DNA of 32,000 nt from Candidatus Saccharimonadota bacterium (GTDB lineage: Bacteria; Pseudomonadota; Gammaproteobacteria; Enterobacterales; Enterobacteriaceae), in NCBI GenBank assembly GCA_002688505.1, contig CP024013.1, forward strand, positions 60,001-92,000, in the 5' to 3' direction. Shown in pieces: positions 1-32,000 of the stretch (positions within the stretch are counted from its first letter, which is position 1; every line of letters starts with the position of its first letter). The translations under genes were made by a program, and so were the position numbers. The notes under the pieces are model-generated. The model did not search any database. It was not told the origin of the DNA and worked only from the letters and a program-made list of their open reading frames with translations.

Positions 1-507
1 ATATAAACATAATCTCTCTAAACCATATGTTATTTCAACTATAACAGGTATACAATCTATATTAGCCATTTTTTGAAAATATGTAAATTGTGTTATTTCT
101 ATACCATCTAATCATATTTCTCATCCATAACCATATGCACCTAAAGTAGGATTTTCTCAATTATCTTCTATAAATTTTAATTCACAATTATTTAAATTAA
201 TACCTAAATATTTTAAAGAATTAATATATAATTCTTGAATTTCTAAAATTGAAGGTTTGATTATTACTTGAAATTGATAATATTGTGATAATTTATTAGA
301 TAAAAAATTACCAAATTTACTATCTATAGGTCTTCTACATAATTGTATATATGAAAAAAAAACATCATATTTTTCTATTGAACTAAAAAATGTTATAGGA
401 TGAAAAGTTGCTGCACCTATTTCAATATCAATAGGCTGAATCATACAACATCCTAATTTATTTCAATATTTAAATAATTTAAAAATCAAATTTTCAAAAG
501 TTATCAT
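1..507 (-). CDS. glyQ: Glycine--tRNA ligase alpha subunit (5' part; the 3' end runs off the window)
   Basis: ORF 157..444 was extended through in-frame TGA codons at 463-465, 157-159, 121-123 and 112-114, with ATG at 505-507. The translation [37 protein letters not shown]...[11 protein letters not shown]...[34 protein letters not shown]...ITYGLERL is collinear with E. coli GlyQ ([53 protein letters not shown]). Confidence 0.92.
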
Positions 508-611
508 AATTTTATAAATATTACAAAATATCAAAATTTAATAATAAATAAAATAATAATATATACATAATATATGTAATATTTAATTATAAACTATATA
601 TTACTTTTATA

Positions 612-977
612 CTACTCTAAATCTCTATTTAAAATTTCAATATAAGCCATAGGAGCATTATCTCCTTTTCTAAAACCACATTTTAATATTCTTACATAAC
701 CACCCTTATAATCTTTAAATCTTGGTGCCAATATAAAAAATAACTTATTTACTACATTTTTATTACCTATTTTAGAAATTAATTTTCTTCTATTAAATAA
801 ATTATTATTTTTAGAAATATTTAATAAAGGTTCAAAAAATCTTCTTAATTCTTTAGCTTTAAATAAAGTAGTTTTTATTATTTCAAAATTTACTAAAGAA
901 ATAACCATATTTTTAAACATAGATTTTCTATGACTACTATTTCTATTAAATTTACGACCAATTTTTTTATGACGCAT
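612..977 (-). CDS. rplQ: 50S ribosomal protein L17
   Basis: Track ORF 612..1001 begins at an alternative TTG. The conserved L17 N-terminus [24 protein letters not shown] (E. coli [24 protein letters not shown]) starts at ATG 975-977. The stop is TAG at 612-614. It is the last gene of the alpha operon. Confidence 0.93.
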
Positions 978-1001
978 AAATATTTTATTAAACCTTATCA
1001 A

Positions 1002-2000
1002 TTATTTATTATCTATTTTTTTAGGAGGTCAATTTTTTAATTTCATTCCTAATTTTAAACCTTTTAAAGATAAAATATTTTTAATTTCAGTTAAAGATTT
1101 TTTACCTAAATTAGGTGTTTTTAATAAATCATATTCAGTTCTTTGTACCAAATCACCTATATAATTAATATTTTCTGTTTTTAAACAATTAGCAGATCTA
1201 ACAGTAAGCTCTAAATCATCTACAGATAATAATAACTCAGGATTAAATTTTACTTTCTTTTTCTTCTTTTTATTTGAAAAATTATCTTTTAATTCAATAA
1301 AAGATTTTAATTGATCATATAAAATAGTTGAAGACTTCTTTATAGCTAACTCAGGATCTAAAGTACCATTAGTTTTTATATCAATTATTAATCTATCTAA
1401 ATCATTTCTATCTTTAAATCTAGCTGACTCAACTATATAAGATACACGTCTTACAGGAGAAAAATATGAATCTAAAAATAATTTACCAATTAATAAACTA
1501 TCTTTATTTTTAAAATAATTCTTTCTATCATAAGAAGAAATAAAACCTATACCCAATTCAATTTTAATTTTCATATCAATTGATGAATTTTTATCTGTTA
1601 AATGACATATAACATGATCTTTATTATATATATAAATATTTTCATCATATGAAATATCAGAAGCTGATATATTACATATACCTTTTTTACTTAAATAAAC
1701 ATAAACATATTTATCATTATTGTTTATTCTTACATATAAATTTCTTAAATTTAAAAGAACTTCACTAATATCTTCTAATAAACCATCTTTAACATCATAT
1801 TCATGTAATATACCATCAATTTCAACTTCAGTAACAGCATAACCAGGCATAGAAGATAATAATATTCTTCTTAAAGAATTACCTATAGTATGACCAAAAC
1901 CTCTTTCTAAAGGTTCTAAAATTATTTTAGAATAATTGGTTGATATTCTTTTAATATCTATAATTTTAGGTTTTAAAAATTTATAAGGAAATTCAAACAT
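1002..2000 (-). CDS. rpoA: DNA-directed RNA polymerase subunit alpha
   Basis: Track ORF 1029..2000 ends at TGA (1029-1031). Read as Trp, the C-terminus becomes ...[16 protein letters not shown] with TAA at 1002-1004, matching the E. coli end ...LGMRLENWPPASIADE. The alpha-CTD ([39 protein letters not shown]) is almost identical to enterobacterial RpoA. Confidence 0.96.
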
Positions 2001-2031
2001 TTTTATATAAATAAAATTTAAATTAATATTA

Positions 2032-2652
2032 TTATTTAGAATAAAATTCTAAAATCAAATGTTCTTGAATATCAAATAATATCATAGAACGTTCAGGAAT
2101 AAATTTTAAAATACCTTCCATTTTATCAAAATTTACTTCTAACCATATTGGTTTATTTTTTTTATTATAAATATCTAATGCATTTTTAATTCTAATTTGA
2201 TTTTTACATCTTGAACAAATTTTAATAACATCATTAGGTTTTACTAAATATGAAGGTATATTAACTATATTATTGTTAACTAATATAGATTTATGACTAA
2301 CTAATTGTCTAGCCTCAGATCTAGTTGTAGAAAATCCCATTCTATAAACTATATTATCTAATCTCCTTTCTAATAACTTTAATAAATATTCACCTGCATT
2401 ACATTTAGATTTAATAGATTTATGATAATAATTAATAAATTGTTTTTCTAAAATTCCATATATTCTTTTTAATTTTTGTTTTTCTCTTAATTGAATACCA
2501 TAATCAGATACTCTATTTTTTTTATAATAATGCTGACCAGGTAAACGATCTATTTTACATTTAGTATCTATATTTCTTATATTAGATTTTAAAAATAAAT
2601 CAGTACACTCTCTTCTACTCAATTTTAATTTAGGACCTATATATTTAGACAT
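2032..2652 (-). CDS. rpsD: 30S ribosomal protein S4
   Basis: Intact 206-aa ORF with an S4 N-terminus ([15 protein letters not shown]). It sits in the canonical position between rpsK and rpoA. The stop is TAA. Confidence 0.95.
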
Positions 2653-2673
2653 ATTTTTAATTTAAAATAAAAT

Positions 2674-3069
2674 TTATACTCTTCTTTTTTTAGGAGGACG
2701 ACAACCATTATGTGGTATAGGAGTAATATCACTAATATTAATAATACGAAAACCTGATAAATTTAACGCTCTTATACTAGAATCTCTTCCAGGTCCAGGA
2801 CCACTAATTTTAATTTCTAAATTTTTAATTCCATAACTTTTAATTATATCTGAACACTTTTCAGCAGCTACTTGAGCTGCAAAAGGAGTAGATTTTCTAG
2901 ATCCTTTAAAACCTGAACTACCAGCAGTAGTTCATCCTAAAACATTACCTTTTAAATCAGTTAAACTAATTATAGTATTATTAAATGAAGCATGTATATA
3001 AACAATTCCATTTAAAAATTTTTTATTAATTTTTTTAACTTTTTTATTATTATTAAAATTTTTAATCAT
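2674..3069 (-). CDS. rpsK: 30S ribosomal protein S11
   Basis: Absent from the ORF track because TGA at 2932-2934 splits it. ATG 3067-3069 to TAA 2674-2676 gives 131 aa: ...[27 protein letters not shown]...[18 protein letters not shown]. The TGA falls on the conserved Trp of S11. Confidence 0.95.
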
Positions 3070-3089
3070 AAAATAACCAATTAATAAAA

Positions 3090-3443
3090 TTATTTAATAT
3101 ATTTACGATTCTTTTTACAAGTTTTAGAATTATTTTTAGTTCTTTGACCCCTTACAGGCAAACCTTTTTTATGACGTATACCTCTATAGCAATTAATATC
3201 AACTAATCTTTTAATATTTAACATAACTTGTCTTTTTAAATCACCTTCTACAAAATAATTGTAAATATCTTTTCTAATTAAATCTAATTCAATATTACTT
3301 AAATCTTTAACTAATTTAAAACTATCAATATTTAAATTACTACAAATTTTTTTAGAAATAAAATTACCTATACCATAAATATATGTTAAAGATATTATAA
3401 CATGTTTATTATCAGGTATATTTACACCTGCTACTCTTACCAT
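3090..3443 (-). CDS. rpsM: 30S ribosomal protein S13
   Basis: Intact 117-aa ORF starting [15 protein letters not shown] (E. coli MARIAGINIPDHKH). It sits in the canonical rpmJ-rpsM-rpsK order. Confidence 0.95.
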
Positions 3444-30880: not shown

Positions 30881-30945
30881 AAAAAACTATACTTTAAATA
30901 TCTAAAACTTTAAATATATGTAAAATTTTGTAATATAACTACAAA

Positions 30946-30960
30946 AATTTTTATTTTAAA
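30946..30960. repeat. 5'-flank arm of a putative 16S rRNA processing stem (pairs with 29220-29234)
   Basis: See 29220-29234. This is a 15/15 complementary match located in the 16S leader. Confidence 0.5.
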
Positions 30961-30965
30961 GAACA

Positions 30966-30989
30966 AATTAATTATTATAATAATTAATT
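30966..30989. repeat. Perfect 24-bp palindrome in the rRNA leader/promoter region
   Basis: AATTAATTATTATAATAATTAATT equals its own reverse complement (12 of 12 pairs). It lies 86-109 nt upstream of the 16S 5' end and 156 nt or more downstream of the rplI stop. Confidence 0.6.
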
Positions 30990-31144
30990 ATTAATACAAT
31001 TAATAAATATAACAATAAAATAAAAATAAAACAAGATATTTTTTTAAAATTTATACAAAATATATAAATATTTCATTATTTAAAATAGTATAAAAATTAT
31101 ATACATTATTAAATAATTAATATACAAAAATAATATAAAACATT

Positions 31145-31591
31145 TTAATTTAAAGACTTTATTTTAATCAAAAAATTAAAATAATCTTTTTTATATAAAG
31201 ATATATTTATTATATAATTACCTAAATATTTTATAGGACCTTTAGGTAAAATAATACATTTTTTAGAAATTTTAATATTTAATTTATCTAAAAATATATT
31301 TTTAATATCTATATTTTTAATAGAACAAAATAATTTATTATTTTTATCAGATCTCAATTTAATATTTAAAGGAGATAAACTAATAATTTTTCTTTTTAAT
31401 TTATCTAATTTAAATAATTTAAAATCTAAAAATTTACTTTTATTAGAAAATTTATTAATATTTTTATAAGTAGCATATACAGCCTTATTATAAGGTATTA
31501 AATAATTTCTAGCATAACCAGGATTAACTTTTAAAATATTACCTATATTAGAAATACTTTTATCTAAAATTATTACCTTTACTTTAACCAT
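31145..31591 (-). CDS. rplI: 50S ribosomal protein L9
   Basis: Intact 148-aa ORF. MVKVKVIILDKSISNIGNILKVNPGYARNYLIPYNKAVYAT aligns with E. coli [40 protein letters not shown]. Confidence 0.94.
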   Translation of the reverse strand: MVKVKVIILDKSISNIGNILKVNPGYARNYLIPYNKAVYATYKNINKFSNKSKFLDFKLFKLDKLKRKIISLSPLNIKLRSDKNNKLFCSIKNIDIKNIFLDKLNIKISKKCIILPKGPIKYLGNYIINISLYKKDYFNFLIKIKSLN

Positions 31592-31609
31592 TTACATATC
31601 CTAACAATA

Positions 31610-31834
31610 TTATTTATTTAAATCAGTATATGGTAATAAAGCTAAATATCTAGCAATTTTAATAGCTATAGCTAATTTTCTCTGATATTTAGCAGAAGTA
31701 CCAGTTACTCTTCTAGGAATAATTTTATAACATTCTGTTATATATAATTTTAATAATTCTATATTTTTATAATCTATAATTTTTATTTTTTTATTAGAAA
31801 AATAACAATATTTTTTTTTATTATAATTAAACAT
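31610..31834 (-). CDS. rpsR: 30S ribosomal protein S18
   Basis: Intact 74-aa ORF containing ...[52 protein letters not shown], a canonical S18 core. Confidence 0.95.
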
Positions 31835-31854
31835 AATAAATCCTCATAAAAACT

Positions 31855-32000
31855 TTATTTATTAAATAAATTTAAATTACTTATTTTTTTATTCATTATA
31901 GAAGAATTATATTCAGCAAAATTTTTTCTTAAAATAATAAATCTTAATATACTATCATTAAATCTAAAATTACTTTCTATATTTTTAATATATAATTTAT
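31855..32000 (-). CDS. rpsF: 30S ribosomal protein S6 (3' part; the 5' end is beyond the window)
   Basis: The minus-strand frame from 31998 reads KLYIKNIESNFRFNDSILRFIILRKNFAEYNSS...NK with TAA at 31855-57. ESNFRFNDSILRFIILR aligns with E. coli S6 ETTFRFNDAVIRSMVMR. It lies directly upstream of rpsR. Confidence 0.85.
   Translation of the reverse strand, partial: KLYIKNIESNFRFNDSILRFIILRKNFAEYNSSIMNKKISNLNLFNK

What the first reader, a model, noticed from the sequence alone, without database searches (positions are those of the whole stretch)
1..32000. UGA is a sense codon (Trp): the window only makes sense under translation table 4
- I counted at least 55 in-frame TGA codons across 22 of the 43 genes. 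Reading them as Trp restores full-length orthologues in every case.
- Most fall on residues that are Trp in E. coli. Examples: the single EF-Tu Trp (14542-44); all five EF-G sites (17090, 17030, 16865, 16667, 16592); RpoA ...NWPP... (1029-31); L4 KPWRQKG and SPIWRSGG (12755, 12701); L3 KRWN (13203); S3 KTWNSYW (10448, 10436); L16 (9573, 9489); the S14 and S7 C-terminal Trp; Orn LIWIDLEMTG (25859); Fmt LLPKWRG (19386).
- None of the 42 gene ends in the window uses TGA. All are TAA, or TAG for rplQ, rpsH, rpsJ and fusA.
- TGG still occurs but is rare. I noticed it in rpsD, rpsS, rplB and orn (25457-59).
- TGA also appears at positions that are not Trp in E. coli (rplN 8696, rpsG LMW, rplB 11444). 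The codon therefore appears to be used freely for Trp.
- The consequence for annotation is that a default table-11 pipeline would call about half of these genes pseudogenes.
Basis: partly seen in the sequence, partly recalled or inferred. Interest (0 to 1): 0.72.

Follow-up and report, generated by a model that had tools for sequence, protein, structure and literature searches.

The report
UGA codes tryptophan in Stammera symbiont
The window comes from the already published genome of the tortoise-beetle symbiont Candidatus Stammera capleta, and its genes do read the stop codon UGA as tryptophan, a recoding known for this organism since 2017.

Summary

- **In-frame TGA.** The 43 coding sequences hold 55 in-frame TGA codons in 23 genes.
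- **Alignment to Trp.** 47 of the 55 align to Trp in the E. coli K-12 orthologues. With TGA masked before alignment, 44 of 54 still do (P about 3e-82).
- **Other codons.** TGG survives at only 5 Trp sites. TAA and TAG never occur in frame.
- **Stop codons.** The 42 gene ends are 38 TAA and 4 TAG, with no TGA. E. coli ends 7 of these same genes with TGA.
- **Source of the window.**
  - Its only close relatives are Candidatus Stammera capleta genomes.
  - RpoA and Orn have 100%-identical proteins on a 271,175-bp NCBI contig.
  - A Logan contig from run SRR6147586 matches 11.8 kb of the window at 100%.
- **Sister lineage.** Stammera genome CP144774.1 uses the standard code. It has 0 in-frame TGA and 51 TGG in 36 orthologues. 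TGG sits at 39 of the 47 window TGA sites that it covers.
- **Literature.** Salem 2017 (as cited by later papers), Codetta and others list Stammera as code 4. They report that prfB is lost and that tRNA-Trp keeps its CCA anticodon.

Neither prfB nor tRNA-Trp lies in the window.

The parts
1..507 (-). glyQ, with its 3' part cut by the window edge. It has 4 in-frame TGA: 463-465, 157-159, 121-123 and 112-114.
   Evidence: all four align to E. coli GlyQ Trp (W20, W121, W133, W136); the standard-code Stammera genome has TGG at each.
1002..2000 (-). rpoA, with TGA at 1029-1031 (motif NWPP).
   Evidence: aligns to E. coli W321. TGG in the standard-code Stammera L014; a 100%-identical 332-aa protein lies on a 271,175-bp NCBI contig.
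2674..3069 (-). rpsK, with TGA at 2932-2934.
   Evidence: E. coli W44. TGG in L014.
3607..4935 (-). secY, with TGA at 4420-4422, 4051-4053 and 4015-4017.
   Evidence: all three fall on E. coli Trp in the unmasked alignment. (five-way alignment): the first two align to TGG in L014 and in E. coli. The third lies in a poorly aligned stretch and aligns to ATA in L014 and CTG in E. coli.
7357..7662 (-). rpsN, with TGA at 7537-7539 and at 7360-7362 (the last sense codon, followed by TAA).
   Evidence: E. coli W42 and the C-terminal W101.
7674..8213 (-). rplE, with TGA at 7923-7925.
   Evidence: E. coli W97.
8552..8923 (-). rplN, with TGA at 8696-8698.
   Evidence: E. coli has V76. TTA in L014 and TGA in L011. 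This is a Trp newly acquired in the lineage, not an ancestral one.
8928..9167 (-). rpsQ, with TGA at 8958-8960.
   Evidence: E. coli W73. TGG in L011 and in L014.
9342..9764 (-). rplP, with TGA at 9573-9575, 9489-9491 and 9351-9353.
   Evidence: the first two align to E. coli W64 and W92; the third overlaps the rpmC start codon (ATGA) and adds a W-K-Y tail that is absent from E. coli, L013 and L014.
9803..10501 (-). rpsC, with TGA at 10448-10450, 10436-10438 and 9899-9901, and TGG at 10001-10003.
   Evidence: all four align to E. coli Trp (W18, W22, W201, W167).
11186..12010 (-). rplB, with TGA at 11444-11446 and TGG at 11372-11374.
   Evidence: the TGA aligns to E. coli R189; it aligns to AGA in the standard-code Stammera. 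The TGG aligns to E. coli W213.
12034..12327 (-). rplW, with TGA at 12235-12237 and 12091-12093.
   Evidence: E. coli L32 and W80.
12314..12934 (-). rplD, with TGA at 12755-12757 and 12701-12703.
   Evidence: E. coli W60 (KPWRQKG) and W78 (SPIWRSGG).
12924..13568 (-). rplC, with TGA at 13338-13340 and 13203-13205.
   Evidence: E. coli W80 and W125.
13912..15096 (-). tuf (EF-Tu), with TGA at 14542-14544.
   Evidence: 84% identical to E. coli TufA. The TGA aligns to W185, counted from the initiator Met.
15122..17245 (-). fusA (EF-G), with 5 TGA starting at 17090, 17030, 16865, 16667 and 16592.
   Evidence: all five align to E. coli Trp (W52, W72, W127, W193, W218).
17271..17744 (-). rpsG, with TGA at 17649-17651, 17436-17438 and 17274-17276 (the last sense codon).
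   Evidence: E. coli V32, W103 and W156.
19059..19991 (+). fmt, with TGA starting at 19386, 19683, 19734 and 19779.
   Evidence: all four align to E. coli Trp.
20721..22004 (-). hflX, with TGA starting at 21588 and 20994.
   Evidence: E. coli W140 and W341; the first is TGA in all four code-4 Stammera loci that carry hflX. The second is TGA in three of them and TTA in L003.
22028..22963 (-). miaA, with TGA starting at 22610, 22208, 22118 and 22106.
   Evidence: E. coli S120, W255, W285 and W294. TGA and TGG interchange among Stammera genomes at columns 122 and 291.
22981..24630 (-). mutL, a very divergent copy, with TGA starting at 24274, 24124, 23920, 23371 and 23137.
   Evidence: only 19% identical to E. 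coli, so the residue assignments are weak. TGA and TGG interchange among Stammera genomes at columns 123, 248 and 587.
24760..25224 (-). tsaE, with TGA at 24892-24894.
   Evidence: E. coli W109. TGG in L001.
25331..25891 (-). orn, with TGA starting at 25859, 25706 and 25601, and TGG at 25457-25459.
   Evidence: all four align to E. coli Trp. TGA and TGG interchange at columns 64 and 147.
25892..25913 (-). The 22-nt spacer between tRNA-Asp and orn. In the E. coli rrnC operon the only tRNA-Trp gene sits in this position.
   Evidence: No tRNA-Trp gene lies here or anywhere else in the window.
29270..30880 (-). 16S rRNA. Every decoding-site segment checked has the E. coli sequence.
   Evidence: the 530 loop, the 912 region, helix 34 (including C1054), the helix 44 A-site and the 3' end are all identical to E. 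coli.

Best explanation
The window is part of the genome of Candidatus Stammera capleta, the extracellular pectin-degrading symbiont of Cassidinae tortoise beetles. This organism translates with NCBI table 4, in which UGA is a tryptophan codon and only UAA and UAG terminate.

Shown here:
- UGA occupies conserved Trp positions.
- It has largely replaced UGG, at 55 codons to 5.
- It is absent from all 42 gene ends.
- The closest standard-code relative has UGG at the same sites.

Inferred from the literature and general knowledge, not tested here:
- The lineage lost release factor 2 (prfB), so nothing terminates at UGA.
- The single tRNA-Trp keeps its CCA anticodon and a normal 5-bp anticodon stem. 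It therefore reads UGA by C34-A wobble, meaning near-cognate decoding with no release-factor competitor.
- Strong A+T mutation pressure (window coding regions are 10-27% G+C) then drove UGG to UGA.
For: Trp signal in the window:
- there are 55 in-frame TGA in 23 of 43 genes, and 47 of them fall on E. coli Trp. All 5 TGG fall on Trp. Gene ends are 38 TAA, 4 TAG and 0 TGA.
- in the masked-alignment control, 44 of 54 TGA fall on Trp (P about 3e-82). E. coli ends 7 of the same 42 genes with TGA.
- there is no in-frame TAA or TAG in 8397 codons. Twenty-three genes fragment under table 11.

Identity of the organism:
- the only relatives of RplI among species-representative genomes are six Stammera capleta MAGs.
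- RpoA and Orn have 100%-identical proteins on a 271,175-bp NCBI contig.
- Logan contig SRR6147586_86 is 100% identical to window 15331-27132.

Comparison within Stammera:
- TGA and TGG interchange at the same columns across code-4 Stammera genomes.
- Stammera genome CP144774.1 has 0 in-frame TGA, 51 TGG and 3 TGA stops in 36 orthologues. It has TGG at 39 of the 47 window TGA sites it covers.

Literature:
- PMC8629427 lists Stammera among known UGA-to-Trp reassignments.
- PMC10540940 Table 2 gives prfB absent, trnW anticodon CCA, and 159 of 255 CDS with UGA.
- PMC13092985 reports a 5-bp anticodon stem in tRNA-Trp(CCA).
- bioRxiv 10.1101/2023.12.12.571295 annotated 50 Stammera genomes with code 4.
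- bioRxiv 10.64898/2026.05.24.727570 describes a basal code-11 clade.
Against: - Nothing in the window contradicts UGA = Trp.
- The two molecular players, prfB and tRNA-Trp, lie outside the window. I could not retrieve them, so their state rests on published statements.
- Eight of the 55 TGA codons do not align to E. coli Trp. That is expected once a codon is used freely, and several of them lie in poorly alignable mutL.
- The TGA at 9351-9353 (rplP) lies beyond the E. coli C-terminus. On its own it could be read either way.
- There is no protein-level evidence.
Confidence: 0.97

Rival explanations
1. UGA is still formally a stop codon with RF2 present, and it is read through inefficiently by tRNA-Trp. 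This would be a transitional or ambiguous state like that proposed for the Providencia siddallii leech symbiont, not a completed reassignment.
For: - tRNA-Trp in Stammera keeps the CCA anticodon.
- Some code-4 Stammera assemblies are reported to contain a prfB.
- A standard-code sister clade exists, so the change is evolutionarily recent within the genus.
Against: - UGA supplies 55 of 60 Trp codons, including sites in EF-Tu, EF-G, RpoA, SecY and 16 ribosomal proteins. Inefficient readthrough at these would be crippling.
- None of 42 gene ends uses TGA, against 7 of 42 in E. coli and 3 of 35 in the standard-code Stammera.
- The type genome is reported to lack prfB.
Confidence: 0.02
2. The TGA codons are nonsense mutations in decaying pseudogenes of a degenerating symbiont genome.
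For: The genome is extremely reduced and A+T rich. mutL is very divergent and is missing from two related genomes.
Against: - The interruptions are of one kind only, TGA. There are no in-frame TAA or TAG, although these triplets are far commoner out of frame.
- 85% of them fall exactly on conserved Trp.
- The same sites are TGA in other Stammera genomes.
- The affected genes are the core translation machinery.
Confidence: 0.005
3. UGA encodes a different amino acid: glycine (table 25), or selenocysteine or cysteine.
For: Both are known alternative meanings of UGA in bacteria.
Against: - None of the 55 TGA codons aligns to E. coli Gly, and one aligns to Cys, in poorly aligned mutL.
- With TGA masked, 44 of 54 still fall on Trp.
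- TGG occupies these sites in the standard-code sister genome.
Confidence: 0.005

Closest known systems
Candidatus Stammera capleta genetic code 4 (Salem et al. 2017, as cited in PMC8629427, PMC10540940 and bioRxiv 10.1101/2023.12.12.571295)
   Same: It is the same organism and the same phenomenon. UGA codes Trp, about 62% of CDS carry UGA, G+C is about 15%, the genome is about 0.27 Mb, prfB is absent and tRNA-Trp has the CCA anticodon. Proteins identical to the window's lie on a 271,175-bp NCBI contig.
   Different: Nothing differs. The window is a piece of that genome.
Basal standard-code (table 11) Stammera clade (gTranslate preprint, bioRxiv 10.64898/2026.05.24.727570), here represented by CP144774.1
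   Same: The gene order across the window region is the same apart from small differences. It belongs to the same symbiont lineage.
   Different: - It has 0 in-frame TGA, 51 TGG and 3 TGA stops in 36 orthologues.
- It is reported to retain prfB.
- Its genome is larger (313 kb).
- It still has rpmD and amiB, which the window lacks.
Candidatus Zinderia insecticola (betaproteobacterial spittlebug symbiont, code 4)
   Same: UGA codes Trp, prfB is lost, G+C is extremely low, and tRNA-Trp keeps the CCA anticodon.
   Different: The Zinderia tRNA-Trp(CCA) has a 4-bp anticodon stem, which has been proposed to enable UGA reading. The Stammera tRNA has the ordinary 5-bp stem. The reassignment arose independently in a different class.
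Candidatus Hodgkinia cicadicola, Candidatus Nasuia deltocephalinicola and Mycoplasmatales (code 4 with tRNA-Trp UCA)
   Same: UGA codes Trp and RF2 is lost.
   Different: These have a cognate tRNA-Trp(UCA). Stammera is reported never to have one.
Candidatus Providencia siddallii PSAC (leech symbiont, incipient code 4; PMC10540940)
   Same: It is a gammaproteobacterial host-restricted symbiont with tRNA-Trp(CCA) and UGA at Trp sites.
   Different: In PSAC only about 20% of CDS carry UGA, a prfB that itself contains UGA is retained, and about nine genes seem still to end in UGA. In this window 53% of genes carry UGA and none ends in it.

Membership tests
NCBI translation table 4 (UGA = Trp) | In-frame UGA in conserved genes, concentrated at positions that are Trp in orthologues. 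| tested here: met
   - 47 of 55 TGA fall on E. coli Trp.
- 44 of 54 do so with TGA masked, P about 3e-82.
- 39 of 47 fall on TGG in the standard-code Stammera.
NCBI translation table 4 (UGA = Trp) | UGA is not used as a terminator. | tested here: met
   None of the 42 gene ends in the window is TGA (38 TAA, 4 TAG). E. coli uses TGA at 7 of the same genes. Only 42 genes could be tested, not the whole genome.
NCBI translation table 4 (UGA = Trp) | UGA and UGG behave as synonymous codons among close relatives. | tested here: met
   TGA and TGG interchange at the same alignment columns in orn, tsaE, miaA, mutL, rpsQ, rpsD, rpsC, rpsS and rpsN across Stammera genomes.
NCBI translation table 4 (UGA = Trp) | Loss or inactivation of release factor 2 (prfB). 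| not testable with these tools
   prfB is not in the window or in any fetched flank. The whole genome could not be fetched. PMC10540940 Table 2 lists prfB as absent in Stammera. A preprint notes a prfB in some code-4 assemblies.
NCBI translation table 4 (UGA = Trp) | A tRNA able to read UGA as Trp, classically with anticodon UCA. | not testable with these tools
   - There is no tRNA-Trp among the five tRNAs of the window.
- There is none in about 50 kb of flanks from related genomes.
- The literature says CCA anticodon and 5-bp stem, with no UCA tRNA in any Stammera.
- So the classical form of this feature is reportedly not met, as in Zinderia.
NCBI translation table 25 (UGA = Gly) | UGA at conserved Gly positions. 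| tested here: not met
   None of the 55 TGA codons aligns to Gly.
Candidatus Stammera capleta (organism identity) | Sequence identity to deposited Stammera genomes. | tested here: met
   - RplI relatives are only Stammera MAGs.
- There are 100%-identical RpoA and Orn proteins on a 271,175-bp NCBI contig.
- There is 100% nucleotide identity to a Logan SRR6147586 contig over 11.8 kb.
- Nucleotide identity to CP043978.1 is 89-91%.

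The most novel reading that the evidence does not exclude
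The open part is how Stammera reads UGA, not that it does. It has no tRNA-Trp(UCA), and its tRNA-Trp(CCA) has an ordinary 5-bp anticodon stem.

In this window:
- Every 16S decoding-site segment I checked (530 loop, helix 34 including C1054, helix 44 A-site) is identical to E. coli.
- The i6A37 enzyme MiaA is retained. From my own knowledge, it is needed for efficient UGA reading by E. coli tRNA-Trp.

My evidence does not exclude a specific, still undescribed adaptation that separates the code-4 clade from the standard-code sister clade. Candidates are a Hirsh-type D-arm change in tRNA-Trp, or a change in a tRNA modification, EF-Tu or a ribosomal protein. The two clades would then be a natural experiment for finding it.
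Probability: 0.25. Interest if true: 0.6.

Novelty: already known. Interest (0 to 1): 0.12.

Why it matters
For annotation, the window must be translated with table 4, otherwise 23 of 43 genes, including tuf, fusA, rpoA, secY and 16 ribosomal-protein genes, look like pseudogenes. This is already standard practice for Stammera, so the finding adds no new biology. It is a clean worked example. The comparison with the standard-code Stammera genome shows the UGG-to-UGA swap site by site within one symbiont genus. That comparison is the best handle on the unresolved question of how a CCA-anticodon tRNA-Trp supports a complete reassignment.

Tried and rejected
- **Exact look-ups of window proteins.** Look-ups of RpsD and of the 100%-identical RpoA P0001 in the gene-position index found nothing. 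Identity was established through P0001 and P0121 and through the Logan contig instead.
- **Search for tRNA-Trp.**
  - It is not in the window.
  - It is not after tRNA-Asp, where E. coli has it.
  - It is not in the 10-kb flanks of six Stammera genomes on the rplI side.
  - It is not in the glyQ-side flank of CP043978.1.
  - It is not in the loci of CP144853.1 and CP144774.1, including the rrn-orn region of the standard-code genome.
  - Each further hop would add only about 10 kb of a 260-kb genome.
- **Supplements of PMC13092985.** They contain no mention of Stammera, so they gave no tRNA-Trp sequence.
- **Salem et al. 2017 (Cell).** The paper is not held in the library. Its content is cited only through later papers.
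- **An rRNA-based UGA suppressor.** I tested for one, such as a helix-34 C1054 change. Every decoding-site segment checked is identical to E. coli, so this is rejected.
- **mutL of L006.** My crude extraction of this gene was out of frame, or the gene is a pseudogene (two HSPs). I ignored that column.

Full report
**1. What the window is.**
- The coding parts of the window have 10-27% G+C. A 40% G+C block marks the rRNA operon.
- Rfam finds 5S, 23S and 16S rRNA on the minus strand at 26009-30880. ARAGORN finds five tRNAs: Cys, Leu-UAA, Gly-GCC, Asp and Glu. None is tRNA-Trp.
- I read ORFs with only TAA and TAG as stops. I then ran tblastn with E. coli K-12 proteins under code 4. This gives 43 coding sequences.
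- The genes are glyQ (cut at the left edge), the alpha, spc, S10 and str ribosomal-protein operons with rpoA, secY, tuf and fusA, then def-fmt, rlmB, hflX, miaA, mutL, tsaE, orn, rplI, rpsR and the end of rpsF.

**2. Check of the observation.**
- I aligned every product, translated with table 4, to its E. coli K-12 orthologue (loci L007-L009). I then tabulated every TGA and TGG codon.
- There are 55 in-frame TGA codons in 23 genes.
- 47 of the 55 align to E. coli Trp. The other eight align to V, V, R, L, S, F, C and one position beyond the E. coli C-terminus.
- TGG occurs five times, always on E. coli Trp.
- Gene ends are 38 TAA and 4 TAG (rplQ, rpsH, rpsJ, fusA). None is TGA.
- BLOSUM62 rewards W-W pairs, which could bias the count. 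I therefore repeated the alignments with TGA masked as X. 44 of 54 aligned TGA codons still fall on Trp. The Trp background is 0.81%, so the binomial P is about 3e-82.
- E. coli ends 7 of the same 42 genes in TGA: rpmJ, rplV, rplD, rpsG, fmt, miaA and mutL. All seven end in TAA here.
- Over 8397 codons the in-frame counts are TGA 55, TGG 5, TAA 0 and TAG 0. TAA and TAG are abundant in the other two frames.
- Under table 11, 23 of 43 genes break into 2-6 pieces.

**3. Whose genome it is.**
- A scan of one genome per species for relatives of RplI returned only six Candidatus Stammera capleta MAGs, at 64-82% amino-acid identity.
- The table-4 translation of RpoA has a 100%-identical, full-length protein in NCBI on a contig of 271,175 bp. 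Orn also has a 100% match on that contig.
- A Logan assembly contig from run SRR6147586 is 100% identical to window 15331-27132.
- From memory, 0.27 Mb is the size of the original Stammera genome from Cassida rubiginosa. I could not read Salem et al. 2017 directly.
- The window is therefore a piece of an already deposited Stammera capleta genome.

**4. Evidence from relatives.**
- In six code-4 Stammera genomes, the window's TGA sites in hflX, miaA, mutL, tsaE and orn are mostly TGA as well. Several columns switch between TGA and TGG from genome to genome. This is the behaviour of synonymous codons.
- The same holds in the ribosomal-protein operons of CP043978.1 and CP144853.1.
- The sharpest comparison is with CP144774.1 (313,621 bp), a Stammera genome with essentially the same gene order.
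  - Across 36 orthologues it has no in-frame TGA and 51 TGG.
  - 3 of its 35 gene ends are TGA.
  - 39 of the 47 window TGA codons it covers align to its TGG.
- This reproduces independently a 2026 preprint, which reports a basal Stammera clade that uses the standard code and retains prfB.

**5. Mechanism.**
- *Shown here:* UGA is a sense codon for Trp, it has nearly replaced UGG, and it is not used for termination in these 42 genes.
- *Not testable here:* prfB and tRNA-Trp lie outside the window.
- In E. coli the only tRNA-Trp gene follows aspT at the end of rrnC. The window has the same operon type: 16S, tRNA-Glu, 23S, 5S, tRNA-Asp. Only 22 nt separate tRNA-Asp from orn.
- No tRNA-Trp turned up in about 50 kb of flanks from relatives, including the standard-code genome.
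- *Published statements:*
  - prfB is absent and the trnW anticodon is CCA in Stammera, and 159 of 255 CDS carry UGA (PMC10540940 Table 2).
  - The tRNA-Trp(CCA) has a normal 5-bp anticodon stem, unlike that of Zinderia (PMC13092985).
  - No Stammera genome has tRNA-Trp(UCA), and a few code-4 assemblies still show a prfB.
- *Most likely mechanism (inference):* RF2 was lost or disabled. UGA is read by near-cognate tRNA-Trp(CCA) with no competing release factor. A+T mutation pressure then converted UGG to UGA.
- I checked for an rRNA-based suppressor. The 530 loop, helix 34 (including C1054), the helix 44 A-site and the 3' end of 16S rRNA are identical to E. coli.
- miaA is retained in the window and in all relatives examined. 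From my own knowledge, i6A37 promotes UGA reading by E. coli tRNA-Trp. Many reduced symbionts keep miaA, so this is only compatible with the mechanism and is not evidence for it.

**6. Rivals.**
- *Pseudogenes:* excluded. The interruptions are all TGA, they fall on Trp, and they are conserved across genomes.
- *UGA = Gly or Sec/Cys:* excluded by the aligned residues (0 Gly, 1 Cys).
- *Leaky readthrough with active RF2:* very unlikely. UGA supplies 92% of Trp codons in the most highly expressed genes, and no gene ends in it.

**7. Comparison with what is known, and verdict.**
- UGA-to-Trp in Stammera is listed among the known bacterial reassignments (PMC8629427; PMC13462651).
- It is used routinely to annotate Stammera genomes.
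- The finding is correct in observation and interpretation, but it re-discovers the published genetic code of this very genome. Novelty: already known. Interest: low.
- What remains open is the decoding mechanism with a CCA anticodon. The code-4 and code-11 sister clades make it testable. It lies outside this window.

Noticed in passing
window 25892-25913 (between tRNA-Asp 25914-25989 and orn); also L015 9933-10000: The rRNA operon has the E. coli rrnC layout (16S, tRNA-Glu, 23S, 5S, tRNA-Asp). The tRNA-Trp gene that follows aspT in E. coli, its only copy, is missing. The gap is 22 nt here and 68 nt in the standard-code Stammera. The Trp tRNA was therefore relocated before the code change.
   Followed up: partly
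window 9351-9354 (rplP / rpmC junction): An ATGA overlap. The rpmC start codon ATG shares its TG with an in-frame TGA of rplP. rplP then runs three more codons (W-K-Y) to a TAA at 9342-9344. CP043978.1 shares this tail. E. coli, CP144853.1 and the standard-code CP144774.1 lack it. It may be a former TGA stop that is now read through.
   Followed up: partly
window 25847-25891 (5' end of orn); protein P0121: The stored protein for orn from this same genome (P0121, 171 aa) starts at Met16, just downstream of the TGA at codon 11. It lacks the conserved N-terminal LIWIDLE segment that E. coli Orn and the standard-code Stammera Orn (P0138) both have. The deposited start is probably mis-called, and the ORF from 25891 is the full-length one. 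The conserved motif there looks like the first acidic exonuclease motif (my own knowledge).
   Followed up: partly
window 5409-5501 (rplO-rpsE spacer); L013 6472-6651, L014 6456-6647: rpmD (ribosomal protein L30) is absent from the window and from CP043978.1. It is present in CP144853.1 and in the standard-code CP144774.1. This is a ribosomal-protein gene loss within the genus.
   Followed up: partly
window 31835-31854, and the region 19994-25891 compared with E. coli locus L008: priB is missing between rpsF and rpsR. hfq, amiB, hflK and hflC are missing from the otherwise E. coli-like run orn, tRNA-Gly, tsaE, mutL, miaA, hflX, rlmB. The standard-code Stammera still has amiB, but no tsaE was called there.
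   Followed up: no
window 22981-24630 (mutL); L002 and L003: mutL is only about 19% identical to E. coli MutL and is shorter (549 against 615 aa). It is absent from two related Stammera genomes (CP144843.1 and CP043973.1) and appears split in CP145599.1. The gene seems to be in the process of being lost across the genus.
   Followed up: partly
window 9121-9354 (rpmC) and 8928-9167 (rpsQ): rpmC is 77 codons against 63 in E. coli, and it overlaps the start of rpsQ by 47 nt. No TGA is involved, so this C-terminal extension has another cause.
   Followed up: no
L014 and L015 (CP144774.1): This Stammera genome uses the standard code in all 36 orthologues examined. It has 0 in-frame TGA and 51 TGG. 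Three of its 35 gene ends are TGA, one of them rpsH. This independently reproduces the basal code-11 clade reported in a 2026 preprint.
   Followed up: yes
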